IMG/VR virus record: IMGVR_UViG_3300042564_003265
Length of the DNA: 64,000 bases
Origin: a virus
Taxonomy: Duplodnaviria; Heunggongvirae; Uroviricota; Caudoviricetes
Direction: 5' to 3' (one strand)
Of this stretch, positions 6,007-49,511 are shown in pieces (the first letter of the stretch is position 1; the number at the start of each line of letters is the position of its first letter). The translations under genes and the position numbers were made by a program. The notes beneath the pieces are model-generated. The model was not told the DNA's origin, did not search any database, and saw only the letters and a list, made by a program, of their open reading frames with translations.

Positions 6007-6037
6007 TTTGGTAGTTAAATAAAATTGTATAACTTTG
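6007..6037 (+). promoter_or_regulatory. Bacteroidetes-type sigma-A promoter
   Basis: TTTGGtagttaaataaaattgTATAACTTTG. Confidence 0.55.
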
Positions 6038-7355: not shown

Positions 7356-7762
7356 CAATGGCGAACCCTTTAATACATTCAAAATCCAGTGTAAAGAGGT
7401 GGGGTGGAAAAGTAGAAGACTACATATCCATTCACGAATTAATTGATAGTCCGAAGGCGACTATGAATAATAATTCATCAAGATTATTAACACATAATAC
7501 TTGGTTCGCATATCACATTTGTCCAAAAATCTTTGGATACAACATTACCAACTCTGATGGTAGAAGTGTTGATGTGGTTGATATAGCGATGTTACATATC
7601 GCTGAGGACTTTCGTATGAAGTTCGTTCCTACACCACAGGATTACTTACAACACCTACAAGTCCAACCCTGGATGAACAATGGTGTAAAAGTTTTAGAGA
7701 GTGTAGAAGGTCAAGAAATCGTTAAACAATTAAATCAAAAATTACATTATGAAAACAACTAA
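7346..7762 (+). CDS. hypothetical early protein
   Basis: ORF overlapping its neighbours by a few nt. Confidence 0.5.
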   Translation: MGLTMANPLIHSKSSVKRWGGKVEDYISIHELIDSPKATMNNNSSRLLTHNTWFAYHICPKIFGYNITNSDGRSVDVVDIAMLHIAEDFRMKFVPTPQDYLQHLQVQPWMNNGVKVLESVEGQEIVKQLNQKLHYENN

Positions 7763-8399
7763 TGAAGAAATGATTGAGTTATGGAAAAAACTCAACATTG
7801 AACAATGTCTTATGGAGTTCTCTTGTGGTGGGGATAGTATGAACGAAACTGAATTTAAGTTTTTCAACTCAAAGAACGAAGAAGTAGATGGTGAGGAACT
7901 TGAAAGTTACTTTGAAAGTGAAGTATATAATCAAGTTGAGTTTTACGAAGTGTCAGACGGACATTATATGGGTGAGTTTGGTCAGGTGGTAATTACTTTG
8001 GAAGAAGAAGATGGTGAAGAACCTTTCTTTCAGTATGACAAACAATCTCAAAGTGAGTGGGAAGAAAGAGAAGTTCAAGTGATGGAGTATGAACTTACTG
8101 ATAGTGAGGTGAAGTTCCTTACAGAAAAGGTAGATAGTATTGTAGGTGGTGAAGATGGTGAGGCGATTAACTACAAAACCGATTGTGTTCTATCTGATGA
8201 AGAAGAAGAAATTTCTGAAAAGTTATTAAAGGATATTTCTGATACCGCAAATGATTTTGAATTTGAGAATGTTGATGGTGAACAACAAGATTGGTTTATC
8301 TTCACTACAAGAATTGATGATGAAGATGGAGTTATCATTGACGGAAATAAACTATCGGTGGAAGTAACAAGAAATTATTATCAAACAAGAGAAGACTAA
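7749..8399 (+). CDS. highly acidic early protein (candidate DNA mimic / anti-restriction)
   Basis: 216 aa, roughly one-third Asp/Glu and few basic residues, in an early operon. Composition only, no homology claimed. Confidence 0.45.
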   Translation: MKTTNEEMIELWKKLNIEQCLMEFSCGGDSMNETEFKFFNSKNEEVDGEELESYFESEVYNQVEFYEVSDGHYMGEFGQVVITLEEEDGEEPFFQYDKQSQSEWEEREVQVMEYELTDSEVKFLTEKVDSIVGGEDGEAINYKTDCVLSDEEEEISEKLLKDISDTANDFEFENVDGEQQDWFIFTTRIDDEDGVIIDGNKLSVEVTRNYYQTRED

Positions 8400-25553: not shown

Positions 25554-25584
25554 CAAAGATATTGATATTTTTGAATATTCCAAA
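25554..25584 (-). promoter_or_regulatory. Bacteroidetes-type promoter on the minus strand
   Basis: Reverse complement reads TTTGGaatattcaaaaatatcaaTATCTTTG (N18 spacer) 4 nt upstream of the ATG. Confidence 0.55.
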
Positions 25585-27604: not shown

Positions 27605-28096
27605 TTACTCTGTGATATTATGGTTTCTATCCCATTTAGCCTTTCTTGCTTCAGGAGACAATAAATGACTTTCATCAATTGTATGAGGTATTTGTGCCCT
27701 GATACAAGTTTGTGGTAATCTTGAATTCATTAGGTAGTTATTAATATACCCCATCATATTCGCCGAACCGATTGGGTTAGCCGAATGTATGTAAATTTGT
27801 GGTAATGGAATCTTTTTATTCATACTTTCTGCAACCAACCATTTACAACAATCGTACCCGGTCTTTTCGTTAACTATGTTTTCATAGTTTAATGTGTAGT
27901 TGTTCTTTACATTAGTATAATATTCCACCATTGACTCTTCACCTAAATCGTGGTCTAAAGATATTACTTCAAAGTTCTCCAAACCTTCTAATCTTATTTT
28001 AGTTACAAACTCTGTGTAGTTTCTTACCACAACCCAGTCACCCTCGGTTGGTGTTCTTACGTCATCAAGATATAAGAATATTTTCTTTTTAGTCAT
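27605..28096 (-). CDS. receiver-like domain protein, candidate CPR (cyclic-phosphate-processing receiver) domain
   Basis: N-terminal FLYLDDVRTP and a VISLDHDLGEE motif. Overlaps the RNA ligase gene by 8 nt (translational coupling). The CPR assignment rests on remembered family motifs and operon context only. Confidence 0.35.
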   Translation of the reverse strand: MTKKKIFLYLDDVRTPTEGDWVVVRNYTEFVTKIRLEGLENFEVISLDHDLGEESMVEYYTNVKNNYTLNYENIVNEKTGYDCCKWLVAESMNKKIPLPQIYIHSANPIGSANMMGYINNYLMNSRLPQTCIRAQIPHTIDESHLLSPEARKAKWDRNHNITE

Positions 28097-29285
28097 CTTT
28101 TTTAAATGGTTTTGAATATTTTGGATATAGGTTTTTCCAAATCAATTCGGAACAATCCTTCCCATCCAATAATTTAAACAAAATAGATTGTATTTCCAAA
28201 TTTTGTTTCTTTATTATTTCGGCAGATTCTTTTCTTGTCATCTCAGGAGTGATATATTTCAAGAACGCCATCTCTGCCATTGTTTTAGTAATGACGAACA
28301 TTTGATTAAACTTATATTCTTCATTTTTAACCCAATCATAAAACTCATCAGGAACTTTATCTAATATCTCATCCATTGGTTTACCCGCTCTCAAATATTC
28401 CCATATGTCTCGATTAGATATGTTAGTTAAAATTCTATGAAGACGTTTGTATTCTTCTCCTTTGATTTTCATACGAAATCCATTTTTAAAACGGATTACA
28501 TAACCTTCTCTATCGTTACTGATTTCTTCTTTAAGTAAATCATAACCCTCACCCCAAGTTTTATAAACAGTAACAATGTTTAACTTCAAATTCTTTATTA
28601 AATTTTTCAATCTAATATCTTCATTGTTATCATTATGAATGTCCACTTCATCTCCTGTTGGTGTGTGTATCATTCCTAATAAAACCAAGTCTTCAAAATT
28701 GTAATTGCAAACTATTCTATTCTCGGGATAGATGATTTCAAATAGATAAGTGTAATCTTTAACTAGTCTATTGTAATCGTACTTCTCTAATAACTCTCTC
28801 CCTTTAATTGCTTGTGTTGATGTAAATGAACCTCTAGTTGCTAAAACCCACTCACCTTTTGTTTTTGGTGTTGGTTCATAATACGGGTCATCAAAATCAG
28901 GTAAATTGTTCGGGTCAAAGAACCTTTCCATACCTGTTTCATAATTGTTGTTAAACCAAATGTTATATCTCCTCTCATCACTCAATTCTTCTTCATAATA
29001 AAAAAGAATACCTAATGAACCGTCCATTTTTTCATATACAACAAAATCTTCGTTAGGTATTTCTTCTGGTTTATGTTCTTCGTAGTTAAAAAACTTTTTG
29101 AATGGTCTAGCAACAATTTCACCTTTTGAATTTGTAACCAATCCTCGACATTGCATAGTTATCTCATCCCACAACTTTTCATACTGAACCCTTGGTGAAT
29201 AATTCCAAATGGTTAAGTCTAAGGTTGGGTGTGTTTGTTTATGTAACAAACCGTCCTTGTGATATTTTTCTAATGTCTCTATCAT
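28089..29285 (-). CDS. ATP-dependent RNA ligase, Rnl1 (T4 RnlA)-like
   Basis: Nucleotidyltransferase motif I KxDG in VVYEKMDGSLGILFYY, resembling T4 Rnl1 KEDGSL. 398 aa. Coupled to the flanking phosphoesterase and receiver-like genes. Confidence 0.55.
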   Translation of the reverse strand: MIETLEKYHKDGLLHKQTHPTLDLTIWNYSPRVQYEKLWDEITMQCRGLVTNSKGEIVARPFKKFFNYEEHKPEEIPNEDFVVYEKMDGSLGILFYYEEELSDERRYNIWFNNNYETGMERFFDPNNLPDFDDPYYEPTPKTKGEWVLATRGSFTSTQAIKGRELLEKYDYNRLVKDYTYLFEIIYPENRIVCNYNFEDLVLLGMIHTPTGDEVDIHNDNNEDIRLKNLIKNLKLNIVTVYKTWGEGYDLLKEEISNDREGYVIRFKNGFRMKIKGEEYKRLHRILTNISNRDIWEYLRAGKPMDEILDKVPDEFYDWVKNEEYKFNQMFVITKTMAEMAFLKYITPEMTRKESAEIIKKQNLEIQSILFKLLDGKDCSELIWKNLYPKYSKPFKKDD

Positions 29286-29938
29286 TCTTTCATATGTTGT
29301 AACAAATCAATGTGGTGGTCTAATGCACCTAATTCGGAACCGGTTTTAAGTTTCTTTAATGGATTTAAACATTCCTTTAACAAATCATAAGGTCTGAATT
29401 CAGGGTGACCATCCATACCAACATCCATTCTTCTACCATTACTTATCTTAACTGCGTGTGGTAGATGACAATGTCCGTGTAAGTGAACCCTACCCTTACG
29501 AAGACCATTCCAACTTGATATTGGATAGTGCATCATTTCGATAGTCTCTCCTTGATATTGAAATTGTTCAAACCAACTCACACTTAAGAATAATCTTTTA
29601 ATGTTCTCTCTGTTTCTATCTATGTGATGGTCGTGGTTACCAAGAATAAGATGTATGTTCTTACATATTAATCTATCATAGAACTCTTCTATTTGTTCAA
29701 ATCCTCCGAATGACCAATCACCTAAATGAATTAGTACGTCATCCTGACCAACAACTTCATTGATGTTATTAACAATTGCACTATTCATTTTTTCTAAGTT
29801 TGGGAAATCTCTTGTCTGTGATTCAGGTAATGAACCATCGGGCATTCTCCAAGCAGTTACACCACGACATATGTTTGTGTGGTTATAATGTGTGTCGGAT
29901 GTTATCCAAACTTTTATATTATTTTCTATTTTTATCAT
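29282..29938 (-). CDS. calcineurin-like metallophosphoesterase
   Basis: All MPE motifs present: D-x-H (SDTHYNH), GD (HLGDWSFGG), GNHD (ILGNHDHH), GHxH (LHGHCHLPH). Confidence 0.8.
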   Translation of the reverse strand: MIKIENNIKVWITSDTHYNHTNICRGVTAWRMPDGSLPESQTRDFPNLEKMNSAIVNNINEVVGQDDVLIHLGDWSFGGFEQIEEFYDRLICKNIHLILGNHDHHIDRNRENIKRLFLSVSWFEQFQYQGETIEMMHYPISSWNGLRKGRVHLHGHCHLPHAVKISNGRRMDVGMDGHPEFRPYDLLKECLNPLKKLKTGSELGALDHHIDLLQHMKE

Positions 29939-30237
29939 CCTCTAAAAAATTTAAAATCTTTCTTTTCTTTTTTAACTTGTGATATTGGTGGTGGAGGTGG
30001 TATCGTAAAACCACGAGCTCTTATATGTCTATCACTATTCATATAATTCTTAATCGACTCCTCCTGAGTCCTTTCTTCGCTGACATCTTTCATAATTAAT
30101 GCCAATAATGGACCAAATAATAATGAAAGAATAACCACTTCAAATTTTAACTTATAATGTTTTTTATGATGGTACATTACATATGTTGCGGATGTCAGTT
30201 GAAAAACTATTAGTACAAAAATTAATTCATTACTCAT
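29935..30237 (-). CDS. membrane protein ending in a C-terminal FKF motif (…KKDFKFFRG)
   Basis: Two TM helices and a PPPPP linker. C-terminus matches the FKF family peptide, and the stop overlaps the ATG of the phosphoesterase gene. Confidence 0.4.
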   Translation of the reverse strand: MSNELIFVLIVFQLTSATYVMYHHKKHYKLKFEVVILSLLFGPLLALIMKDVSEERTQEESIKNYMNSDRHIRARGFTIPPPPPISQVKKEKKDFKFFRG

Positions 30238-30238
30238 A

Positions 30239-30430
30239 TTAATCTTTTAATAATGCGTTAATGATTCCTGTTGTTGCACTGAAGGAGAATAATAGATATA
30301 AGATTTTAGTGACCCAATGCCACATAAATAAATTTGGCTCATTACTCACGAACCAAAATATCAAATACCAAAACCCGAATCCAAATACTAATCCAATAAT
30401 GAAAAGTAATATTATTTTAATTGCTTCCAT
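30239..30430 (-). CDS. small membrane protein (2 TM)
   Basis: Hydrophobic 63-aa ORF fitting the gene spacing. Confidence 0.35.
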   Translation of the reverse strand: MEAIKIILLFIIGLVFGFGFWYLIFWFVSNEPNLFMWHWVTKILYLLFSFSATTGIINALLKD

Positions 30431-30434
30431 AATT

Positions 30435-30932
30435 TTAACAAAAATCTGTTGATGTACTCACACGAAGTCCATTGATTATTAAATCATCATATTCAGGTCT
30501 ATCAAAAAATGAACCCATACCATTTGTTCTTTGTTTTCTACGATATTCTTCATTAACAACTAACCCATCCGGTTCACCCCAATTCAAAGACATTAAAATA
30601 AATTCATTAACATCTTGTTCTTCACCATACTCATCAACAACTCGACCTGAACGAATGAATGAAAGTAGTTCTTCTTTGTCGGAGTAGTATTTGTTGTTAT
30701 GAAAATTCCAACAGAATTTCCAACCGCTACTTCGTTTACCTAAATGAATATTAGTATCTTCAATGAAAGAATCCCAAGGAGATTCGCTGGACCATTCATC
30801 AACTTGGATAACACGAAACCCCCTTTCAATATTAAATGGTGTTAATATTAAATCTTCAATGTGTTTTATTAGTTTTTCCTTTTTAGATTCCATCTCGTCT
30901 ACGGTTGGAATTCTATAGTAATTTGTACCCAT
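30435..30932 (-). CDS. hypothetical protein
   Basis: 165-aa ORF. Confidence 0.45.
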   Translation of the reverse strand: MGTNYYRIPTVDEMESKKEKLIKHIEDLILTPFNIERGFRVIQVDEWSSESPWDSFIEDTNIHLGKRSSGWKFCWNFHNNKYYSDKEELLSFIRSGRVVDEYGEEQDVNEFILMSLNWGEPDGLVVNEEYRRKQRTNGMGSFFDRPEYDDLIINGLRVSTSTDFC

Positions 30933-30990
30933 AATAATGTTAGTAAGTCTAAAACAAATTTAGATATTTTTATTGATATTGCAAAATTTT

Positions 30991-31021
30991 CGAAAAAAAA
31001 ATCCCCGATTTTTTCGGGGAT
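30991..31021 (-). terminator. rho-independent terminator (minus strand) downstream of the kinase gene
   Basis: Minus-sense ATCCCCGA aaaaa TCGGGGAT, perfect 8-bp stem followed by U9. Confidence 0.7.
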
Positions 31022-31026
31022 TCATT

Positions 31027-31461
31027 TTATAACTTGACATTGAAACGGTCTCTCATTTGTTTAACCTTTTCATCAGGTACTCCGTGAACATTCTCCCCTC
31101 CGTGGCGATTCTCAACAATTAACGTGTGAACACGATATTTGTATCTTTCCGCAATTTCAAAGTACTTCTCCATCTCCCATTCTTCGGTAAAGGTGTTGGC
31201 TACGACGATTCGACTGAACTCGTTCTTCATTCTCTCCGCACATTTCAACAGACAATCATTGTGGGCTTCTTTTAATTTTGTAGCATCAAAATTATAGGTT
31301 CCCTTTTCGTTTAGAAAGAAGTTGTCTGCCGATAAAACATCGGGATTATCACCTCTCACACATCTTAAAATAACCTCACCAACGGTGGTCTTTCCCGAAC
31401 CGGGAACACCCCTCAATAAGATTAATTCACCGATATATTCAATTTCACTCATAATACTCAT
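31027..31461 (-). CDS. P-loop kinase, polynucleotide 5'-kinase-like (AAA_33 / T4 Pnk kinase-domain type)
   Basis: Walker A LLRGVPGSGKTTVGEV. 144-aa single-domain kinase sitting with the RNA ligase and phosphoesterase. Confidence 0.5.
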   Translation of the reverse strand: MSIMSEIEYIGELILLRGVPGSGKTTVGEVILRCVRGDNPDVLSADNFFLNEKGTYNFDATKLKEAHNDCLLKCAERMKNEFSRIVVANTFTEEWEMEKYFEIAERYKYRVHTLIVENRHGGENVHGVPDEKVKQMRDRFNVKL

Positions 31462-31492: not shown

Positions 31493-32440
31493 TTATTGAA
31501 TATTCTTAAACATTTGTGGTACCGTCCCATAAACAGGTAACTTACCATCCCATTTGTTAATCCATTCTAATTGTAATAACATTGGGGTGATTGTCTTTTG
31601 TTTAAGACTATTCGCCTCAGCTTCCGCCTTAGCAGATGTTAGCATTGCCTGAGCATTACCTTGTGCAGTTGCAACTTTAATCTTGGCTTCCGCCTCGGCT
31701 TGTTTAACTTTGTTCTCAGCCATCAAAGCTCCCTGAACCGCATTATTCTTAGCCTCAATTGCTTTCTTGAATGTTTCAGGATATAAAAGGTTAGATGTGA
31801 ATTGTGTGATGATAAACCCTTCTTTACCTAACTCACCATCTAAAATTCTACGAACCTCAATTTCGAACTTCTGACGATTACTAATCAACTCATCTGCGGT
31901 ATAGACGTTGGTTGCTAATCTAAACGCATCAAACACCGCAGTCTTTAAAAACCCCTCTTCAATTTGGTCTAAACTTCTACGATACTTAGCAAAGATTTGT
32001 GGTACCTTCTCTCTTTGTACTGAGTAGTTAATGATTGGTGAAACGTGAAACTCACTACCATCTTTACTATTCACTACGAACGAATTCTCACCCGTGTATT
32101 CCTTGTGTTGAATGAATGTAGGGAACTCATAAATTGAGTGGGTAATAGGGTTAAAAAACACCATACCAGTCACTTCTACCACATCACTTACTCCTTTATT
32201 GTCACCATACTGATTAACTTTAACACCAACGTGTCCCGCGTCAATTCTCTCACAAGAGAAGAATAAAAAAGTTAATGTAAAAAATGCTGCTACTCCGATT
32301 AAAATGCTTCTCATAATTTTTGTTTGTTTTTCTTTTTGTTCATTATTAAATTCTTGTTCCATCCGGTCTAATTCTTCGACAGTCCTTGGTCTTCTTTCGT
32401 TAAAGTTCCATTGATTGTCGTATCTACTAAATTTTGCCAT
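31493..32440 (-). CDS. SPFH/band-7 (prohibitin/HflK-like) domain membrane protein
   Basis: N-terminal TM helix, SPFH-like core (HVGVKVNQYG...) and an Ala/Glu/Lys coiled-coil tail (KQAEAEAKIKVATAQGNAQAMLTSAKAEAEA). Confidence 0.5.
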   Translation of the reverse strand: MAKFSRYDNQWNFNERRPRTVEELDRMEQEFNNEQKEKQTKIMRSILIGVAAFFTLTFLFFSCERIDAGHVGVKVNQYGDNKGVSDVVEVTGMVFFNPITHSIYEFPTFIQHKEYTGENSFVVNSKDGSEFHVSPIINYSVQREKVPQIFAKYRRSLDQIEEGFLKTAVFDAFRLATNVYTADELISNRQKFEIEVRRILDGELGKEGFIITQFTSNLLYPETFKKAIEAKNNAVQGALMAENKVKQAEAEAKIKVATAQGNAQAMLTSAKAEAEANSLKQKTITPMLLQLEWINKWDGKLPVYGTVPQMFKNIQ

Positions 32441-32441
32441 A

Positions 32442-32831
32442 TTATTTGTTTTTAATTGGGTGGTGAGGGGGTAAAGGAAATTCTGATTTCTTTTTCTTTC
32501 TCGTCTTTACAAATTGTTCGTCACTTTTAACTCCATCGAATTGTTTAGGATTTCTTTTCCTTTTAGGTTTTAGTTCTTCAGGATTAATATAATCCAATTC
32601 AGTTTCACCCGGTTCGATTATCGGTTCGCTAAGTAAATCACTATCTTTCAAATAGAAAAATACAAACACCAAAGTGAACAACCCAACGACACCAGAAACG
32701 ATGTTAAAGATTGTACTTGGAGCTGTTAATCCGGGAAAAACAATAAATGTAAAAATTGCAAAGGTTCCCAAACCAATGAAGATTGGTGTGGTGATTTTGT
32801 TGTTAAATGTTTTTTTGAATAGTTCTTTCAT
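32442..32831 (-). CDS. membrane protein (2 TM) with a basic C-terminus
   Basis: Hydrophobic N-terminal half. Confidence 0.45.
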   Translation of the reverse strand: MKELFKKTFNNKITTPIFIGLGTFAIFTFIVFPGLTAPSTIFNIVSGVVGLFTLVFVFFYLKDSDLLSEPIIEPGETELDYINPEELKPKRKRNPKQFDGVKSDEQFVKTRKKKKSEFPLPPHHPIKNK

Positions 32832-32881: not shown

Positions 32882-33202
32882 TTATTGCTCAAGTTTTTTA
32901 TAGGTCATTCCATAAAAACCGTAATTACTTATTACTGATTCCTTATCACCCATAGACATCGCAACTTCTTCGGTAGGAAATATTGCATCGACCGGACATT
33001 CAGGTTCACAAGCACCACAATCAATACAAGTATCAGGATTTATGTAAAGTTGTTTACCCAGTAAATCTCCTTTAGACATTGTAGTTATTTCCGCACCTAA
33101 TCTATCGGTGAATATTGGTCCATTGATTGCATCCACGGGACAAACCGCAACACAACTGGTGTCCAAGCAATTAACACATTTTTTTCCTATAATATATGAC
33201 AT
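32882..33202 (-). CDS. 2x[4Fe-4S] ferredoxin
   Basis: Two CxxCxxCxxxCP clusters: [14 protein letters not shown] and [12 protein letters not shown]. Start placed at MSYIIGKK. Confidence 0.75.
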
Positions 33203-33212
33203 AAAATAATTT

Positions 33213-33626
33213 TTAACTATCAAACCAAAAGACAAATCGAGGTACCATTCCACGATTGTCAAGGGCTTTCATTATATCAAGTACAAGATGGTAATCAGTA
33301 CCAATGAATACATCTTCATCTTCTTTTTTAAGCATCTCCTCAATTAGCATTTCATATTCGTTGAGTGATAACCAAGAGGGTGTATGGGTATCTTCTTCTT
33401 TATATGCCTCCCTCACTTCATAACTAACAACACCTTTCGGTATACCCTTTGGATGAACTCCGAATTTGAGTTCGGGGTCATATCTGACTATCCCATCAGT
33501 AAGATAACCAAATAGATTATAGTTTCTACCTAAACTAAGTTCTTCCGATACTGAATACCAATGTGGTTCATCTCGTTTATCATCTTTATCTCTATACTCT
33601 ATGTATCCGTGGATGTCGCACCCCAT
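33213..33626 (-). CDS. hypothetical protein
   Basis: ORF. Confidence 0.45.
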
Positions 33627-34210: not shown

Positions 34211-34867
34211 TTAATAAAATTTTCTCAAAACTTCAATCACATCCCAAGCGTCCTCAAGTGCGTCGTGAGTTACAACACCTTCAATACCTGCACGTTCTTT
34301 ACAAGTTGTTAAGTTTGGTAATGACTTATCGTTATTCCAATCAACCATTAAAATTGCCGGGTCCAATACTCTTTGACGAGTACGGATTAACTTTTGCCAC
34401 CAAGGTAGTTCTTGTAAGAATAATTTATCAAATGTTCCAAAGTTCTTACCTGCAACATTTAATGTGATTGGTTTAGATTTCCCGTCGATGATTGGTATTC
34501 CATTTACATCATTCAAAATTGACGGTGAATCCAAATGTGAGAATCCATTACACCAAAGAAATGTATAAAACTGTTTAATCACATCCTCTTCTCTATGGAA
34601 ACTATAATTAAGAATCGTGTCCATATTAAATCTAACATCATCAGTACCTTCTAAGTATTCCCCAATCATTGCAATTAAACCTTTGTTCATTGTAAGTGCT
34701 CGTGGTGAACCTGTGATTTCATTTTGAAGAATAACCGCATTGAACTTTGGACATTCTTCATACGGTAATTTCTTCTCAGTGTCTTCGATGATTGCACCGA
34801 TAGATAGTACTTTGTGTTTCTCGTGGTCAAGACCTGATGTCTCGATGTCTATTGATACATATATCAT
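34211..34867 (-). CDS. DEDDh 3'-5' exonuclease (DnaQ/oligoribonuclease-like)
   Basis: Exo I YVSIDIETSGL and Exo III VVTHDALEDAWDV motifs. Confidence 0.75.
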   Translation of the reverse strand: MIYVSIDIETSGLDHEKHKVLSIGAIIEDTEKKLPYEECPKFNAVILQNEITGSPRALTMNKGLIAMIGEYLEGTDDVRFNMDTILNYSFHREEDVIKQFYTFLWCNGFSHLDSPSILNDVNGIPIIDGKSKPITLNVAGKNFGTFDKLFLQELPWWQKLIRTRQRVLDPAILMVDWNNDKSLPNLTTCKERAGIEGVVTHDALEDAWDVIEVLRKFY

Positions 34868-35331
34868 AATCCTAATGATTTAAGTTGGTCAATTGTATGT
34901 TTTGTGTTGATGTGGTGAATACCGATACCACCAGCATCTCTCCATCCTTGAATGTTATCGATACGGTCATCTATCAATATCGATTTTGGTGCTGCAAAAT
35001 CTTTTTTATGTTTTGCACTTCTTAATATGAGATGAACACCGGGTAGTTCTTTGTAAACCCAATCAAGTTTAGCAACTCTTGACACCTCTTCTCTAGAAGG
35101 TGCCGATAATAATTCGGGTTTGTATTTTTCAATATACTTCCATAACCTCTTACCATCGTTCATCCATTCAAGGTTAATCCAAAAATCGTAACCCGCCGCA
35201 TTTATTGGGTCCCAAAAATGTTTATCATTTCTATGGGTACCATCCAATTGATGTCCGGTAAGTTCAAAATAGCCCTTGTCAAAATCGACAAGGACTCCGT
35301 CCATATCACAATATATTTTATATTCCGACAT
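34864..35331 (-). CDS. 5'(3')-deoxyribonucleotidase, HAD family NT5C type
   Basis: IYCDMDGVLVDFDKGY (DxDGVLxDF) and ILIDDRIDNIQGW, matching NT5C-family hallmarks. Confidence 0.7.
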   Translation of the reverse strand: MSEYKIYCDMDGVLVDFDKGYFELTGHQLDGTHRNDKHFWDPINAAGYDFWINLEWMNDGKRLWKYIEKYKPELLSAPSREEVSRVAKLDWVYKELPGVHLILRSAKHKKDFAAPKSILIDDRIDNIQGWRDAGGIGIHHINTKHTIDQLKSLGL

Positions 35332-35515: not shown

Positions 35516-35551
35516 TTAAAATACAAATATAAAATATATTCTCGAATATCC

Positions 35552-35577
35552 AAAAAAAAACCTCACAAAGTGAGGTT
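35552..35577 (-). terminator. rho-independent terminator (minus strand)
   Basis: Minus-sense AACCUCAC uuug GUGAGGUU followed by U9, downstream of gene 35584-35826. Confidence 0.7.
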
Positions 35578-37704: not shown

Positions 37705-37762
37705 ACACCAAATATAACAATATATTTGATAAATCCAAAATAATATTGAAAAAAATTAAGAT

Positions 37763-39600: not shown

Positions 39601-40203
39601 CTATTTTTCGTTTAAATAATTTATAACCTTCTCTTTAATTCCTGTTTGTTTAATTCCTTCAGAACTTAATGGAGTCTCTACAAAGTTATCTAATCCCCAT
39701 TCGTGTTCATAAGGTATACTATAATCAAGTCCTGTTTTACCCATTCTCAAATCATCGATTGAAACCCAATGGGTAACTTCAGGATGGTCAACCAAGTATT
39801 GTTTAATTTCAATACTTCTAGTTTGTTCCAATTCCCAAGCACGAGACCAAATAAACCCGGCAGGATATGCTTCGATGTACCAAGTACACTGTCCTAAGTT
39901 TGGTGTGAAATCAATTGGTTTTTTAATGATACCCTGTTGTTCATAATATTCACCCATCTCCTCTACAGACGCCCATCTCTTCCAATCTGAACTAACAACA
40001 ATTTCAGCACCTGTTTCTTCTAAAATAGAATTTAATAGTTTAATCGCTTTCTTATCGAAATCATCAAAGCGACATTCCAATGGAACTTCACCATTCGTCA
40101 TTGACATCTTACGACCACCCCAACTCTTTTGTTTTTTGTGACGACCACCCCAATTGTTGGATAAACAGATTACACCATCGTGGTCAAGAAATATTACTTT
40201 CAT
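39601..40203 (-). CDS. HAD-superfamily phosphatase-like protein
   Basis: N-terminal MKVIFLDHDGVICL (DxDG motif I). Confidence 0.35.
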   Translation of the reverse strand: MKVIFLDHDGVICLSNNWGGRHKKQKSWGGRKMSMTNGEVPLECRFDDFDKKAIKLLNSILEETGAEIVVSSDWKRWASVEEMGEYYEQQGIIKKPIDFTPNLGQCTWYIEAYPAGFIWSRAWELEQTRSIEIKQYLVDHPEVTHWVSIDDLRMGKTGLDYSIPYEHEWGLDNFVETPLSSEGIKQTGIKEKVINYLNEK

Positions 40204-40513
40204 TTCTTTTTTTGATTATATTCCTAAATGTACTAAAAATTCCTAATAACATAAACATTTGTACTGGCCAAAATGGTAAGTTTTGTAGTTCGTGTAACAT
40301 CCAAAAGATGTTCATAAAGACCCAAGACAATAACGTTAAGTTAGATTTTCTATTCTCTTTTTCTGTTATAAAAATATAAAGTGTCAATACAGATGTGGGA
40401 ATGACCATAAATGTGGCCATCCACGTAAATTTAAGACACCAGAATATATCTTTAAACAGCCACGAAATTATATGAATTTCTTGTATATTCCAAATAATTT
40501 TAGGAATTTTCAT
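40184..40513 (-). CDS. membrane protein (3 TM)
   Basis: Hydrophobic ORF filling the gap between flanking genes. Confidence 0.35.
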   Translation of the reverse strand: MKIPKIIWNIQEIHIISWLFKDIFWCLKFTWMATFMVIPTSVLTLYIFITEKENRKSNLTLLSWVFMNIFWMLHELQNLPFWPVQMFMLLGIFSTFRNIIKKRNESNIS

Positions 40514-40925
40514 CGATATATTGCAATTGTGGAGACCAAGTACCTTCGGATATTATCGTCGGTTTACTGTTTCTATCAATCATCACCCACTCCACATTAA
40601 CAATACCCCAAGGTTCGAATTGTTCTAACACATCTGACAATGTGAAACATTTACAACTGTAGATATCAAATTGAGCCATTGCCGGTTGGTGGTGGTCCCA
40701 TATATGAATCGATGAATGAGATGTTGCAAGTGTTACTGTTCCTGTCAATCCTTCATTACCCGGATAATCCACGTAAACACTCGTTGGTCCACCAACTACT
40801 TCCATTTTAACTTTATGAACTAAATCAACAAACCACTTGTTGAGTGTGTCCACCTCTTTTGGTGGATTGGTAATCCAAATCTTCATTAGAAGATGTTGGT
40901 GATAAGGTACAAATTCTTCCTGCAT
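40500..40925 (-). CDS. pyruvoyl-dependent decarboxylase, S-adenosylmethionine decarboxylase (SpeH/SpeD class 1)-like
   Basis: GLTGTVTLATSHSSIHIWDHH ... FDIYSCK matches the G.sGvv.I.ESH(L/I)(S/T)IH(T/S)(W/F)PE ... D(V/I)(Y/F)(T/S)CG proenzyme cleavage and active-site region. Confidence 0.5.
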   Translation of the reverse strand: MQEEFVPYHQHLLMKIWITNPPKEVDTLNKWFVDLVHKVKMEVVGGPTSVYVDYPGNEGLTGTVTLATSHSSIHIWDHHQPAMAQFDIYSCKCFTLSDVLEQFEPWGIVNVEWVMIDRNSKPTIISEGTWSPQLQYIDENS

Positions 40926-47890: not shown

Positions 47891-48420
47891 AGTCTACCTG
47901 CTCCTTTATATGATTTTTTATATTTTGGTTCACTTAATGAACTAATCTTTACCCCCTCATCTTTATTTGCTGCGTGTACAAATCTATCATCACCAATGTA
48001 AATCCCACAGTGCCAACCTGATGGACTTTGTCTACTTCTAAAAAAAACTATGTCACCAACAACCAAATTAGTTTTAGGGATTCTTTTGGTTTGATTCCAT
48101 TGTTTGTACGCCACATTCTCCAAACGTAAATTGTAAATTTCAGAATATAATCTTTTTGTAAATTGTGAACAGTCAATCCCTCTTTTGGTTGAGCCACCTA
48201 ATTTATATCTAACCCCTAACCAGTCTCTCACAAATGCGTCAAGTCTTGCACTATCGGTAAGTGGTATTTTCTCAGTTTTACCTTTAACCATTACATACAT
48301 AAAATTGGTGTCAACCAATGATTGTTTGTAGGTTACATAATCTGAAAATTGATTTTGTCCTAATGTTGAAATTGTTGGTAATATAATCAACAACAATGTT
48401 ATAATATTTTTCATACTCAA
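47887..48420 (-). CDS. NlpC/P60-family peptidoglycan endopeptidase with a signal peptide
   Basis: Signal-like MSMKNIITLLLIILPTISTLG. Catalytic core GIDCSQF ... GDIVFF ... WHCGIYIGDDRFVHA (Cys-His-His). Confidence 0.8.
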   Translation of the reverse strand: MSMKNIITLLLIILPTISTLGQNQFSDYVTYKQSLVDTNFMYVMVKGKTEKIPLTDSARLDAFVRDWLGVRYKLGGSTKRGIDCSQFTKRLYSEIYNLRLENVAYKQWNQTKRIPKTNLVVGDIVFFRSRQSPSGWHCGIYIGDDRFVHAANKDEGVKISSLSEPKYKKSYKGAGRL

Positions 48421-49511
48421 TTACTTAATGGTGCCTTAATCGGTGGATGTGATATATAGTTTTCCAAAATCACGTCGTGCTCACCAAATGAAAATATACC
48501 ATCTCTAACTTGTACAGTTGGTAAATCAAACGGTTCTCTTTTTATTTGTTCTTTGGCTTGTTCAATATGGTCAGAATAAAGATGAACATCACCTAAATTA
48601 CCGATTAACTCATCCGGTATCATATTCATTTCATCTGCTATCATCATCAATAATAAACCATAAGATGCAATGTTAAATGGTAAACCTAAAAACGTATCAA
48701 CACTTCTTTGATTCCACATTAATGAGATTGCTCTCTTAGGTATATTATTTGATTGTAGTTCTTCACTTAATCCTCCACCGAACGGTACAATATCTTCAAC
48801 CATCAAGTCGAATATTTCTTTACCGACTTTCTTTTCTAATAGTTCCCATCTTTCTTCACCACTCAACTCTCTTGTGTAAACTTGAAATCCATAATGACAA
48901 GGTGGTAAAATCATATAATCCAATTCACCCACATTCCAAGCAGATACCATTAATCTTCTACTATCCGGATTTGTTTTAAGTTCGTTGATTAGGTTTTGTA
49001 TTTGGTCAATCTGTTCACCGACCTTACTCCAACTTCTCCATTGCTTACCATAGATTGGTCCTAACTCACCCCACTTCTCCGCAAACTCATCATCGGTTTT
49101 GATATTCTCGATGAACTCTTCTTTTGTTAGTGGTGTAAGTTCATCGGCGTTACTAAACCATTTTTCAATGTGAGGTTGCATCCCCATAATGTCACCAGAT
49201 TTATAACCATCAATAACATCCTCGATTTTTTTACTGTAATTTTTGTAGGCATCACCATCCCAAATATGACATCCATTCATCACAAGGTATTTGATGTTGG
49301 TACTTCCGCTTAGGAACCATATTAATTCAGTAACCATCGTTTTCCAAGCCATCTTCTTAGTTGTTAACAATGGAAATCCTTCACTCATTTTATGACGGAT
49401 TTGTCTACCGAATACTGAAATTGTTCCTGTACCGGTTCTATCTTTTTTCTGCACACCCCAATGAAGAATGTCTTCTAGTAATGCTTGGTACCTCGGGTCT
49501 AAATTATTCAT
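48417..49511 (-). CDS. thyA: thymidylate synthase (ThyA) homolog with a ~100-aa insertion
   Basis: KKDRTGTGTISVFG, active-site ILPPCHYGFQVY, GLPFNIASYGLLLMMIA (Asn retained, so uracil-specific). 364 aa versus ~264 for canonical ThyA. A dUMP hydroxymethylase cannot be excluded from sequence alone. Confidence 0.75.
   Translation of the reverse strand: MNNLDPRYQALLEDILHWGVQKKDRTGTGTISVFGRQIRHKMSEGFPLLTTKKMAWKTMVTELIWFLSGSTNIKYLVMNGCHIWDGDAYKNYSKKIEDVIDGYKSGDIMGMQPHIEKWFSNADELTPLTKEEFIENIKTDDEFAEKWGELGPIYGKQWRSWSKVGEQIDQIQNLINELKTNPDSRRLMVSAWNVGELDYMILPPCHYGFQVYTRELSGEERWELLEKKVGKEIFDLMVEDIVPFGGGLSEELQSNNIPKRAISLMWNQRSVDTFLGLPFNIASYGLLLMMIADEMNMIPDELIGNLGDVHLYSDHIEQAKEQIKREPFDLPTVQVRDGIFSFGEHDVILENYISHPPIKAPLSN

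What the first reader, a model, noticed from the sequence alone, without database searches (positions are those of the whole stretch)
27605..31461. Phage RNA-repair module: receiver-like (CPR?) protein, Rnl1-type RNA ligase, metallophosphoesterase and stand-alone polynucleotide-kinase-like P-loop protein
Three translationally coupled genes are predicted (overlaps of 8, 4 and 4 nt). The first is a receiver-fold protein with LDDVR and SLDHDLG motifs (27605-28096). The second is an ATP-dependent ligase with KMDGSL motif I like T4 RnlA (28089-29285). The third is a calcineurin-like phosphoesterase with all canonical metal-binding motifs (29282-29938). Two membrane genes and one ORF further on lies a 144-aa Walker-A kinase (31027-31461) of the polynucleotide-kinase size class. 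Together these supply the three activities needed to heal and seal tRNA cleaved by host anticodon nucleases: 5'-OH kinase, removal of 2',3'-cyclic or 3'-phosphate, and ligation. Here they are split across separate polypeptides, unlike the fused kinase-HAD-phosphatase Pnkp of T4, and carry an extra receiver-like domain that I tentatively equate with the cyclic-phosphate-processing receiver domains described next to RNA-repair ligases. An HAD phosphatase-like gene at 39601 could contribute. This implies the host fields a tRNA-targeting (PrrC/RloC/colicin-like) defence.
Basis: partly seen in the sequence, partly recalled or inferred. Interest (0 to 1): 0.7.

Follow-up and report, generated by a model that had tools for sequence, protein, structure and literature searches.

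The report
Split phage RNA-repair gene set
An uncultured phage, probably of Bacteroidota, carries separate genes for an RNA ligase, an RNA-end kinase and two or three phosphate-removing enzymes that together look able to mend cut tRNA; the kit is real but of a kind already described by comparative genomics, and the one unexpected item is a 45-residue peptide inserted in the ligase.

Summary
All genes exist at the stated coordinates, on the minus strand, with overlaps of 8, 4 and 4 nt. Every family assignment holds:
- cREC receiver-like domain: PF20274, E=4e-23.
- T4 Rnl1-type ligase: PF09511. T4 Rnl1 is the only significant solved relative, and no DNA-ligase or capping family matches.
- Binuclear metallophosphoesterase with all five motifs.
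- 144-aa P-loop kinase whose nearest solved folds are polynucleotide kinases (C. thermocellum Pnk, T4 Pnkp).
- HAD_SAK_2 phosphatase at 39601-40203.

Synteny is the strongest new evidence. In 78 of 80 related viral contigs the kinase lies within 8 kb of the ligase, and in 65 it is within 300 nt upstream. cREC (45 loci) and the metallophosphoesterase (19 loci) are variable additions. Homologous ligase/kinase/phosphoesterase sets occur in cultured Escherichia, Vibrio and Pseudomonas phages.

This gene combination was already described computationally (Iyer et al. 2021, 2022), so it is a new member of a known kind. No activity is shown. The role of cREC and the claim about host anticodon nucleases remain inference.

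One thing was unexpected. The ligase carries a 45-codon in-frame insert under stronger purifying selection than the enzyme itself. It is absent from a 95%-identical relative. It is shared with phage thymidylate synthases and with small thymidylate-synthase-fragment-like proteins, and matches no Pfam or PHROG family.

The parts
31027..31461 (-). Stand-alone P-loop kinase (144 aa), predicted RNA 5'-OH polynucleotide kinase
   Evidence: Pfam AAA_33 2e-12; PHROG 2071 2e-36 and PHROG 505 'polynucleotide kinase' 2.5e-6. AF2 model pLDDT 81.8; Foldseek top hits are CthPnk 4jt2/4gp6 and T4 Pnkp 2ia5/1ly1. Invariant GSGK24 and D46 in 24 homologues. Lies within 8 kb of the ligase in 78/80 related loci, within 300 nt upstream in 65.
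30999..31023 (-). Terminator-like hairpin directly after the kinase stop codon
   Evidence: 10-bp stem (5 GC pairs) plus T-run. Conserved after the kinase only in the window clade (L003-L007, L081), folding at about -20 kcal/mol.
30955..30984 (-). Bacteroidota-type promoter-like site (TTG-N19-TAnnTTTG) upstream of the o165...cREC block
   Evidence: Exact match. 7 such sites in the window against 1.98 expected, and 0 of 100 shuffles reach 7; 5 of the 7 lie just upstream of genes on the coding strand. The consensus itself is from established knowledge of Bacteroidetes promoters.
30435..30932 (-). ORF of 165 aa, unknown function, first gene of the downstream block
   Evidence: No match in Pfam, PHROG, NCBIfam, PDB or deposited phages. 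Conserved next to the MPE in the window clade, L083 and L063. Membership in the module is unproven.
29935..30430 (-). Two small hydrophobic ORFs (63 aa at 30239-30430; 100 aa at 29935-30237)
   Evidence: Hydrophobic sequences, no family. Absent from the closest relative L083, where o165 abuts the MPE. Accessory, probably not part of the repair chemistry.
29282..29938 (-). Binuclear metallophosphoesterase (218 aa), candidate 2',3'-cyclic phosphodiesterase / 3'-phosphatase
   Evidence: Pfam Metallophos 1.3e-9; PHROG 547 8e-43. Motifs D15-x-H17, G73-D74, G100-N-H-D103, H137, G155-H-x-H158. Nearest solved relative is Aquifex aq_1665, 1xm7, 7e-5. Homologous to the phosphoesterase next to the kinase in phage RudolfGeigy (28.6% identity, 3e-14). 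Relatives found in 1292 phage records.
28089..29285 (-). Rnl1-type ATP-dependent RNA ligase (398 aa)
   Evidence: Pfam RNA_lig_T4_1 4e-16; PHROG 562 2e-67 over residues 141-396; T4 Rnl1 structures at 1e-8. Residues aligned to T4 R54, K75, F77, K99, G102, E159, E227/G228, K240/K242 are R47, K64, F66, K86, G89, E183, E260/G261, K273/K275; T4 K119 aligns to R151.
28860..28994 (-). 45-codon in-frame insert in the ligase, right after motif I (about residues 98-142: EEELSDERRYNIWFNNNYETGMERFFDPNNLPDFDDPYYEPTPKT)
   Evidence: Exactly absent from L083/P0260, whose ligase is otherwise 95% aa / 91% nt identical. Nonsynonymous differences per codon 0.112 against 0.315 in the rest of the gene, at equal synonymous difference 0.246 against 0.243. 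The same peptide occurs in ThyA of L073-78 and in 70 protein clusters. No Pfam or PHROG family.
27605..28096 (-). cREC (cyclic-phosphate-processing receiver-like) protein, 163 aa
   Evidence: Pfam PF20274 3.8e-23; PHROG 1479 2e-29. Invariant D11, D12, D48, D50 and S105 in 18 homologues. Directly 3' of the ligase in 45/80 related loci.
39601..40203 (-). Stand-alone HAD_SAK_2 phosphatase (200 aa); possible additional 3'-end-healing enzyme, not linked
   Evidence: Pfam PF18143 8.4e-21; N-terminal DHDG (DxD) motif. Lies 8 kb away among unrelated small genes; linkage could not be assessed in related loci because it falls outside the fetched flanks.

Best explanation
This is a distributed RNA (most likely tRNA) heal-and-seal pathway of an uncultured phage, probably infecting Bacteroidota. 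After a host or competitor ribonuclease leaves 2',3'-cyclic-phosphate and 5'-OH ends, three things would happen. The 144-aa kinase phosphorylates the 5'-OH. The cyclic phosphate is opened and removed by the cREC protein and/or the metallophosphoesterase, possibly helped by the unlinked HAD_SAK_2 phosphatase. The Rnl1-type ligase then adenylates the 5'-phosphate and seals the nick. What is shown: the family identity of each protein, intact catalytic motifs, and conserved genomic linkage of kinase and ligase, with cREC and MPE as variable partners. What is inferred: every substrate and activity, the division of labour between cREC, MPE and HAD, whether a 2'-phosphate is kept (Trl1-like route) or removed (T4-like route), and the counter-defence purpose.
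For: Family assignments are above curated cut-offs for all five proteins and supported by PHROGs. Ligase: T4 Rnl1 is the only significant solved relative, and the essential T4 residues align to identical residues apart from one K-to-R change. Kinase: the predicted fold is nearest to bacterial and T4 polynucleotide kinases; the best profile hit among solved proteins is the stand-alone tRNA-splicing RNA kinase RazKIN (PMC11571804); the P-loop and the downstream Asp are invariant. Synteny: the kinase is within 8 kb of the ligase in 78/80 related viral loci and within 300 nt upstream in 65; cREC is immediately 3' of the ligase in 45; the MPE is present in 19. Homologous ligase + kinase + phosphoesterase sets occur in Escherichia phage RudolfGeigy, Vibrio phage Brizo and Pseudomonas phage PseuPha1. 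The closest actinophage ligases sit next to a classical fused Pnkp. The literature predicts cREC as a cyclic-phosphate-processing enzyme linked to RNA ligases (PMC7824862) and describes the ligase/cREC/kinase/calcineurin-like neighbourhood (PMC9503650). A binuclear MPE with 2',3'-cyclic phosphodiesterase and phosphatase activity is the end-healing domain of C. thermocellum Pnkp (PMC2190708).
Against: No biochemical data exist for any of these proteins or close relatives; cREC is stated to be experimentally uncharacterized (PMC9503650). The kinase has an invariant Phe (F49) where T4 Pnkp and CthPnk have the Arg of the D-x-x-R motif (alignment by eye from recalled sequences; for invariance). Motif II of the MPE is GDWSFGG, not the GDxxDRG of the lambda-phosphatase/CthPnkp clade, and its nearest solved relative has no known function. 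In this window a terminator-like hairpin separates the kinase from the rest. Twenty related loci have kinase and ligase but neither cREC nor MPE within 8 kb, so neither is obligatory. No tRNA gene and no Rfam RNA lies in the 64 kb. Foldseek scores are modest (E about 3e-5, TM about 0.6), and other small-molecule P-loop kinases follow closely.
Confidence: 0.72

Rival explanations
1. Only the kinase and ligase repair RNA. cREC and the metallophosphoesterase mainly destroy soluble signalling or toxic nucleotides (cyclic nucleotides, ADP-ribose-derived cyclic phosphates) produced by host defence systems.
For: cREC was proposed to process cADPR or ADPr>p as well as RNA ends, and is often fused to Nudix (PMC7824862, PMC9503650; Nudix-annotated hits). 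cREC and MPE are each dispensable next to kinase-ligase (20 loci have neither). Calcineurin-like enzymes of phages are also predicted nucleotide phosphodiesterases (PMC7824862). The MPE family occurs in 1292 phage records, more than the 413 with a ligase relative.
Against: cREC overlaps the ligase stop codon by 8 nt and follows the ligase directly in 45 loci. The MPE overlaps the ligase start by 4 nt. In distant phages the MPE homologue sits next to the kinase. No NAD-utilizing enzyme (sirtuin, KptA, Macro, Nudix) was found among the window ORFs scanned.
Confidence: 0.15
2. The ligase has a non-repair role, and the neighbouring enzymes are unrelated nucleotide-metabolism genes. The role could be virion assembly, like the tail-fibre attachment activity of T4 gp63, or processing or circularizing phage RNAs.
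For: PHROG 562 is labelled 'RNA ligase and tail fiber protein attachment catalyst'. The window holds many nucleotide-metabolism genes, including ThyA and an NT5C-like nucleotidase.
Against: All nucleotidyl-transfer residues are conserved. Kinase-ligase linkage is conserved in nearly all related loci and across phages of unrelated hosts, which is not expected for unrelated functions.
Confidence: 0.06
3. The set heals and seals DNA nicks (5'-OH / 3'-phosphate ends) rather than RNA.
For: Polynucleotide kinases of this clade commonly accept DNA as well (PMC11571804 for MciKIN). MPE-family enzymes also act in DNA repair (general knowledge).
Against: The ligase matches the Rnl1 family only, with no DNA-ligase family hit. 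In phage RudolfGeigy a separate ATP-dependent DNA ligase is encoded a few genes from the homologous RNA-ligase set.
Confidence: 0.03

Closest known systems
rV5 / Mydo-type phage RNA-repair neighbourhood (Iyer et al. 2022, Viruses 14:1977, section 3.7.3; cREC-ligase linkage in Iyer et al. 2021, Viruses 13:63)
   Same: Same component list: T4-like RNA ligase, cREC protein, stand-alone nucleotide/polynucleotide kinase, calcineurin-like phosphoesterase. The window kinase (37% identity), MPE (29%) and the N-terminal part of the ligase (34%) are detectably homologous to those of the Vequintavirus RudolfGeigy.
   Different: No sirtuin and no MazG gene was found in the window. Gene order differs, with ligase and cREC downstream of the MPE on one strand. 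The ligase is longer (398 against about 305 aa) and carries a 45-aa insert. The host lineage is probably Bacteroidota.
T4 Pnkp + Rnl1 tRNA repair pathway
   Same: Same predicted chemistry (5' kinase, 3' end healing, Rnl1-type sealing). The ligase is a detectable homologue of T4 Rnl1 with the essential residues conserved.
   Different: T4 fuses the kinase to a HAD-type phosphatase. Here the kinase stands alone, and the candidate 3'-healing enzymes are a binuclear MPE, a cREC protein and an unlinked HAD of a different family (HAD_SAK_2). The NCBIfam equivalog score is far below cut-off (72.8 against 242), so the ligase is not an orthologue-level match.
Clostridium thermocellum Pnkp (kinase-metallophosphoesterase-ligase) of the Pnkp/Hen1 system
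   Same: Same three catalytic domain types: P-loop polynucleotide kinase, binuclear MPE, ATP-dependent ligase. CthPnk is the top structural neighbour of the window kinase. PHROG 8238, a 737-position kinase...ligase profile, is hit by both the window kinase and the window ligase.
   Different: Here the three are separate polypeptides. The MPE lacks the GDxxDRG motif of the lambda-phosphatase/CthPnkp clade. No Hen1 methyltransferase was found. The ligase is Rnl1-type.
Mucorales split tRNA-splicing apparatus (stand-alone RNL + stand-alone KIN; Ghosh et al. 2024, RNA 30:1674)
   Same: A monofunctional 160-210-aa RNA 5'-OH kinase works with a separately encoded ligase. RazKIN is the best sequence-profile hit of the window kinase family among solved structures (E=0.004).
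   Different: The Mucorales system is eukaryotic tRNA splicing and its kinase is GTP-specific. The similarity is weak and mostly in the P-loop region.

Membership tests
Rnl1 (T4 RnlA-type RNA ligase) | Match to the family profile above the curated threshold | tested here: met
   PF09511 scores 60 bits against a cut-off of 28.3. PHROG 562 at 1.8e-67, aligned over residues 141-396 to profile positions 114-370 of 377.
Rnl1 (T4 RnlA-type RNA ligase) | Nucleotidyltransferase motifs with the lysine nucleophile (KxDGS) and the T4 Rnl1 essential residues R54, K75, F77, G102, K119, E159, E227, G228, K240, K242 (list recalled from Shuman-lab mutagenesis) | tested here: met
   The alignment to 2c5u with positions gives R47, K64, F66, K86, G89, E183, E260, G261, K273, K275. 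T4 K119 aligns to R151, a conservative change that is invariant in this clade.
Rnl1 (T4 RnlA-type RNA ligase) | Orthologue-level (equivalog) similarity to T4 RnlA | tested here: not met
   TIGR02308 scores 72.8 bits against a cut-off of 242.25. It is a distant family member, not an equivalog.
Rnl1 (T4 RnlA-type RNA ligase) | All-helical C-terminal domain (tRNA specificity domain in T4) | tested here: inconclusive
   The AF2 model gives confident helices for residues 290-395 (pLDDT 84-96), but the catalytic domain is poorly modelled (mean pLDDT 59). No fold comparison was run on it.
Rnl1 (T4 RnlA-type RNA ligase) | Sealing of 3'-OH/5'-PO4 RNA nicks, with preference for tRNA anticodon loops | not testable with these tools
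   Requires biochemistry.
5'-OH polynucleotide kinase (T4 Pnkp / CthPnk / Trl1-KIN clade) | P-loop GxxxxGK[ST] plus a downstream aspartate general base | tested here: met
   G18-P-G-S-G-K24-T25 and S44-A45-D46 are invariant in 24 homologues. The role of the Asp is as described in PMC11571804.
5'-OH polynucleotide kinase (T4 Pnkp / CthPnk / Trl1-KIN clade) | Arginine three residues after the catalytic Asp (D-x-x-R; T4 R38, Cth R41; recalled from memory) | tested here: not met
   The sequence is SADNFF, and F49 is invariant in the family. The equivalence rests on alignment by eye, not on a structural superposition.
5'-OH polynucleotide kinase (T4 Pnkp / CthPnk / Trl1-KIN clade) | Nearest structural neighbours are polynucleotide kinases | tested here: met
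   Foldseek ranks 1-12 are CthPnk (4jt2, 4gp6, 4jst, 4gp7) and T4 Pnkp (2ia5, 1ly1), E 3e-5 to 1e-4, TM 0.58-0.66. APS, gluconate and PSTK kinases follow closely.
5'-OH polynucleotide kinase (T4 Pnkp / CthPnk / Trl1-KIN clade) | Genomic linkage to an RNA ligase | tested here: met
   The kinase is present in 78/80 related loci and within 300 nt of the ligase in 65. It is also adjacent in RudolfGeigy, Brizo and PseuPha1.
Binuclear metallophosphoesterase (calcineurin-like) superfamily | Five metal-binding motifs: DxH, GD, GNH[D/E], H, GHxH | tested here: met
   D15/H17, G73/D74, G100-N-H-D103, H137, G155-H-C-H158. PF00149 scores 39.2 bits against a cut-off of 21.5.
Lambda-phosphatase / CthPnkp phosphatase clade (MPEs with proven 2',3'-cyclic phosphodiesterase activity) | Motif II GDxxDRG and detectable sequence similarity to lambda-Pase/CthPnkp | tested here: not met
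   Motif II is GDWSFGG. The only solved relative found at E<=10 is aq_1665 (1xm7), of unknown function.
cREC (PF20274) | Profile match above cut-off, conserved acidic residues of the receiver active site, and no histidine-kinase partner | tested here: met
   82.4 bits against a cut-off of 27. D11, D12, D48 and D50 are invariant. No histidine-kinase family was found among the scanned window ORFs.
cREC (PF20274) | Cyclic-phosphate-processing activity | not testable with these tools
   Predicted only; stated to be experimentally uncharacterized in PMC9503650.
HAD_SAK_2 (PF18143) | Profile match and the HAD motif I DxD | tested here: met
   75.2 bits against a cut-off of 27.5. The N-terminus reads FLDHDGV.
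HAD_SAK_2 (PF18143) | Linkage to the other repair genes | tested here: inconclusive
   It lies 8 kb from the kinase among unrelated genes, outside the flanks fetched for related loci.
Sirtuin-centred rV5/Mydo-type neighbourhood (Iyer et al. 2022) | Presence of the distinct sirtuin (and often MazG) next to ligase, cREC and kinase | tested here: not met
   No SIR2 or MazG family appears among the families listed for 66 window ORFs scanned against Pfam. Two of the 27 families were not displayed, and ORFs under about 110 aa were mostly not scanned.

The most novel reading that the evidence does not exclude
The 45-residue insert in the ligase (ELSDERRYNIWFNNNYETGMERFFDPNNLPDFDDPYYEPTPK) may be one allele of an undescribed, transferable beta-hairpin insertion module. 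It sits between two strand-like flanks in at least four contexts: Rnl1, two different sites of phage thymidylate synthase, and a family of small thymidylate-synthase-fragment-like proteins whose paralogues carry different sequences at the same hairpin. In the ligase it is under stronger purifying selection than the enzyme and has been lost precisely at least three times. A shared, selected peptide grafted onto unrelated enzymes would point to a common partner, localisation or regulatory signal in a large group of uncultured (probably Bacteroidota) large phages.
Probability: 0.45. Interest if true: 0.6.

Novelty: new member of a known kind. Interest (0 to 1): 0.33.

Why it matters
The main finding adds a well-supported example of a split heal-and-seal RNA repair kit, this time in freshwater-type uncultured phages that probably infect Bacteroidota. 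It shows that the stand-alone kinase plus Rnl1-type ligase pair is the conserved core, with cREC and the metallophosphoesterase as interchangeable add-ons. That distribution (38 loci with cREC only, 12 with MPE only, 6 with both) makes the still untested proposal that cREC heals 2',3'-cyclic phosphate ends directly testable with a small set of natural variants. The same kinase and phosphoesterase families are annotated merely as 'ATPase' and 'phosphoesterase' in hundreds of cultured phages, so the assignment has annotation value. The ligase insert could matter more if it proves to be a portable functional peptide.

Tried and rejected
- Nucleotide search of the module against 50,697 deposited phage genomes found nothing. 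The nearest cultured relative by protein is Flavobacterium phage immuto_3-5A: cREC 59%, MPE 47%.
- Sequence search of the kinase alone against solved structures gave only P-loop-level hits. A structure prediction plus Foldseek was needed.
- cREC has no solved relative by sequence.
- The AF2 model of the ligase was poor: pLDDT 59 overall and below 30 in the insert. It could not be used to place the insert or for fold search.
- I tested whether the insert is an RNA-level element (intron-like). The RNA fold z-score is -0.5 and the peptide is under purifying selection, so this was rejected. An intein was rejected on size (45 aa) and the absence of splice-junction residues. A recent selfish in-frame DNA element was rejected because synonymous divergence inside the insert equals that of the rest of the gene.
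- ORF 30435-30932 matched nothing anywhere.
- No tRNA genes and no Rfam families in the window.
- No sirtuin, MazG, Nudix, Macro, 2H or KptA families were seen in the scanned window ORFs.
- Burroughs & Aravind 2016 (PMC5062991) is not held in the paper library, so it is cited only through Iyer et al.

Full report
**1. Observation**

- cREC-like protein, 27605-28096 (163 aa)
- ligase, 28089-29285 (398 aa)
- metallophosphoesterase (MPE), 29282-29938 (218 aa)
- two small hydrophobic ORFs, 29935-30237 and 30239-30430
- an ORF of 165 aa, 30435-30932
- the P-loop kinase, 31027-31461 (144 aa)

The overlaps of 8, 4 and 4 nt follow from these coordinates, and the quoted motifs are present. Transcription therefore runs kinase -> o165 -> two membrane ORFs -> MPE -> ligase -> cREC.

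A strong terminator-like hairpin (31023-30999) follows the kinase. Next comes an exact TTG-N19-TAnnTTTG site (30984-30955). That motif occurs 7 times in the window against 1.98 expected, and 5 of the 7 sites lie just upstream of genes. From established knowledge this is the Bacteroidetes promoter consensus. Together with the nearest cultured relative being a Flavobacterium phage, it suggests a Bacteroidota host. It also suggests that in this window the kinase and the MPE-ligase-cREC block are separate transcription units.

**2. Family identity**

Pfam places each protein above its curated cut-off:

| Protein | Pfam family | E-value |
|---|---|---|
| cREC | cREC_REC | 3.8e-23 |
| ligase | RNA_lig_T4_1 | 4e-16 |
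| MPE | Metallophos | 1.3e-9 |
| kinase | AAA_33 | 2e-12 |
| gene at 39601-40203 | HAD_SAK_2 | 8.4e-21 |

PHROGs agree: the ligase hits phrog_562 (RNA ligase / gp63 family) at 2e-67 and the MPE hits phrog_547 (phosphoesterase) at 8e-43. The kinase hits phrog_2071 at 2e-36 and, more weakly, the polynucleotide-kinase phrog_505.

*Ligase.* Its only significant solved relatives are the T4 Rnl1 structures. Residues aligned to the T4 essential positions are identical, except that T4 K119 aligns to R151. No DNA-ligase or capping-enzyme family appears at E<=0.01. The similarity is distant: it is below the NCBIfam equivalog cut-off, and the closest deposited phage ligases are only 32-34% identical.

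*MPE.* It has all five metal-binding motifs. Its motif II is GDWSFGG rather than the GDxxDRG of the lambda-phosphatase/CthPnkp clade. Its nearest solved relative is the uncharacterized Aquifex protein aq_1665.

*cREC.* The protein keeps the acidic residues of the receiver active site: D11, D12, D48 and D50 are invariant.

**3. The kinase**

Sequence alone gives only P-loop-level similarity to solved proteins. An AF2 model built on 24 homologues (pLDDT 81.8) is closest to C. thermocellum polynucleotide kinase and T4 Pnkp (Foldseek ranks 1-12). Other small P-loop kinases are not far behind.

A profile of the family finds, as its best solved hit, RazKIN. RazKIN is a stand-alone RNA 5'-OH kinase that works with a stand-alone ligase in Mucorales tRNA splicing (PMC11571804).

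The P-loop and the downstream aspartate (D46), the two features that paper highlights for polynucleotide kinases, are invariant. The arginine three residues after the Asp in T4 and Cth kinases is replaced by an invariant Phe. I record this as a feature not met. Hits to dNMP or uridine kinase models cover only the P-loop.

**4. Synteny**

Eighty related loci from IMG/VR (ligase 43-90% identical, contigs up to 316 kb) were compared with the window proteins.

- The kinase is present in 78 loci. In 65 it lies within 300 nt upstream of the ligase (median gap 81 nt).
- cREC follows the ligase directly in 45 loci.
- The MPE is present in 19 loci.
- Six loci have both cREC and MPE (as do the window and L083), 38 have cREC only, 12 have MPE only, and 20 have neither within 8 kb.

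These loci are not independent, since there are only 55 distinct ligase sequences, so I draw no statistics from the apparent complementarity.

In the window clade, o165, the membrane ORFs and the MPE lie between kinase and ligase. In most other related loci the two genes are less than 300 nt apart. The closest relative, L083, lacks the two membrane ORFs.

The linkage is not confined to this clade. Escherichia phage RudolfGeigy has sirtuin - small ORF - RNA ligase, divergent from polynucleotide kinase - phosphoesterase. Vibrio phage Brizo has RNA ligase - 'ATPase' - ORF - phosphoesterase. Pseudomonas phage PseuPha1 has RNA ligase - 'ATPase'. The window kinase, MPE and ligase are detectably homologous to the RudolfGeigy proteins. 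The nearest actinophage ligases sit beside a classical fused Pnkp.

**5. Mechanism**

The best-supported reading is a distributed heal-and-seal pathway for RNA broken to 2',3'-cyclic-phosphate and 5'-OH ends. The kinase supplies the 5'-phosphate, cREC and/or the MPE (and perhaps the unlinked HAD) process the 3' end, and the Rnl1-type ligase seals.

- Shown: families, catalytic residues and linkage.
- Inferred: all substrates.

Two routes remain open. One is complete removal of the phosphate, as in T4. The other is opening to a 2'-phosphate that is tolerated or removed later, as in Trl1-type systems and as Iyer et al. propose for sirtuin-linked sets.

The main rival is that cREC and the MPE mainly destroy soluble nucleotide or ADP-ribose-derived signals. 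It cannot be excluded, but the tight coupling of both genes to the ligase weakens it.

The window holds no tRNA gene and no Rfam RNA.

**6. Comparison with what is known**

- The cREC domain and its operonic linkage to RNA ligases were described by Iyer et al. 2021 (PMC7824862).
- The combination of T4-like ligase, cREC, nucleotide kinase and occasional calcineurin-like phosphoesterase was described for rV5/Mydo-type phages by Iyer et al. 2022 (PMC9503650).
- The SAK-type HAD comes from Burroughs & Aravind 2016, cited in those papers.

The window differs in several ways. No sirtuin or MazG was found. Gene order is different, the host lineage is probably different, and the ligase is longer. By domain content the set is also a split version of C. 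thermocellum Pnkp (kinase-MPE-ligase), but the MPE belongs to another subfamily and no Hen1 was found. I therefore rate it a new member of a known kind. cREC is still experimentally uncharacterized (PMC9503650).

**7. Unexpected: an insert in the ligase**

Right after motif I the ligase has 45 extra codons (about 28860-28994).

- *Presence and absence.* They are missing, cleanly and in frame, from the ligase of L083/P0260, which is otherwise 95% identical in protein and 91% in DNA with identical synteny. They are also missing from L054/55 and from the L073-78 clade.
- *History.* A neighbour-joining tree without the insert columns shows the insert in almost the whole environmental clade, including the deepest branch. 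It is absent at three nested positions and in the actinophage outgroup. This fits one old gain and at least three precise losses or allele replacements.
- *Selection.* Across 78 coding sequences the insert codons differ synonymously as often as the rest of the gene (0.246 against 0.243 per codon). They differ nonsynonymously about one third as often (0.112 against 0.315). The peptide is thus more constrained than the enzyme. The RNA has no unusual fold (z=-0.5).
- *Distribution.* The same peptide lies inside thymidylate synthase in L073-78, the clade whose ligase lacks it. A search of 1.84 billion representative proteins finds it in 70 clusters (27 at E<1e-10). These include ThyA at two different sites and many small unannotated proteins.
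- *Relation to ThyA.* The small proteins resemble pieces of phage ThyA: the EFIxKIKTDxEFxxKWG helix plus a hairpin. Tandem paralogues carry different sequences at the same hairpin (L103). The window's own ThyA (48417-49511) has yet another insert at that site.
- *Databases.* No Pfam or PHROG family covers the peptide. It has no match in the deposited phage genomes and only one copy in the window.

The AF2 model of the ligase was too poor to show how the insert folds. I could not determine its function, and I report it as a partly followed side finding and as the most novel reading.

**8. Verdict**

Novelty is low, because this is a known kind predicted in the literature. Interest is modest at 0.33. 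It is raised slightly by the clean natural variation in accessory 3'-healing enzymes and by the unexplained ligase insert.

Noticed in passing
window 28860-28994 (minus strand), inside the ligase gene; also L074 10003-10128, L073, L076-78 (ThyA genes): A 45-codon in-frame insert after ligase motif I (ELSDERRYNIWFNNNYETGMERFFDPNNLPDFDDPYYEPTPK). It is absent from the 95%-identical ligase of L083, more conserved than the enzyme itself, and shared with thymidylate synthases and 70 clusters of mostly small proteins. No Pfam or PHROG family covers it, and there is no match in deposited phage genomes.
   Followed up: partly
window 48417-49511 (minus strand); L091 3812-4258 and 4847-5962; L103 2535-4390: The window's thymidylate synthase has a different ~45-aa insert at the same hairpin (after PPCHYGFQVYTRELS...) where related phages carry the ligase-type module. 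Related contigs encode small proteins that look like ThyA fragments (EFIxKIKTDxEFxxKWG + hairpin), in L103 as three tandem paralogues with different hairpin inserts: a hypervariable hairpin scaffold.
   Followed up: partly
window 6008-6037 (+), 25554-25583, 30955-30984, 35524-35553, 37709-37738 (all -): TTG-N19-TAnnTTTG sites (Bacteroidetes-type promoter consensus) are enriched: 7 found against 1.98 expected, with no shuffle reaching 7. Five of them lie just upstream of genes on the coding strand, which points to a Bacteroidota host.
   Followed up: partly
window 29935-30430 (minus strand): The two small membrane ORFs between o165 and the MPE are missing from the otherwise syntenic closest relative L083, where o165 abuts the MPE. 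The two genomes differ by this two-gene block.
   Followed up: partly
L010, L020, L023, L025, L029, L038 and others, directly after the kinase stop (about locus 7750-8000); not present in the window: In many related loci a short conserved ORF (MSQFIESF...) starts at the kinase stop codon (TAAATGAGTCAATTTATTGAATC...) and contains an A-rich run (CAAAAAAC-type) shortly before the ligase start. Whether it is a real small gene or a regulatory or recoding feature is unknown.
   Followed up: no
window 31493-32831 (minus strand): An SPFH/Band-7 protein (315 aa, Pfam 1.8e-21) and a 129-aa membrane protein lie just upstream of the kinase. The same pair precedes the kinase in the window clade and in L049-53 and L071.
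   Followed up: no
P0363 (222-aa metagenomic protein fragment): A ThyA fragment in which the region after insertion site B is joined through the module to the region after site A, duplicating about 60 residues. It is either recombination between two module copies in one gene or an assembly artefact caused by them.
   Followed up: no
window 32882-33262, 34211-34867, 34864-35331, 40500-40925 (all minus strand) and elsewhere in the window: Other recognisable genes in the window: a 4Fe-4S ferredoxin, a DEDD (RNase T-like) exonuclease, an NT5C-like nucleotidase and an AdoMet-decarboxylase-like protein. The batch scan of the larger ORFs also reported C5 and N6/N4 DNA methylases, an S-AdoMet lyase, glycosyltransferases, a sugar epimerase/dehydratase, and M23 and NlpC/P60 peptidases. 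There are no tRNA genes and no Rfam RNAs in the 64 kb.
   Followed up: no
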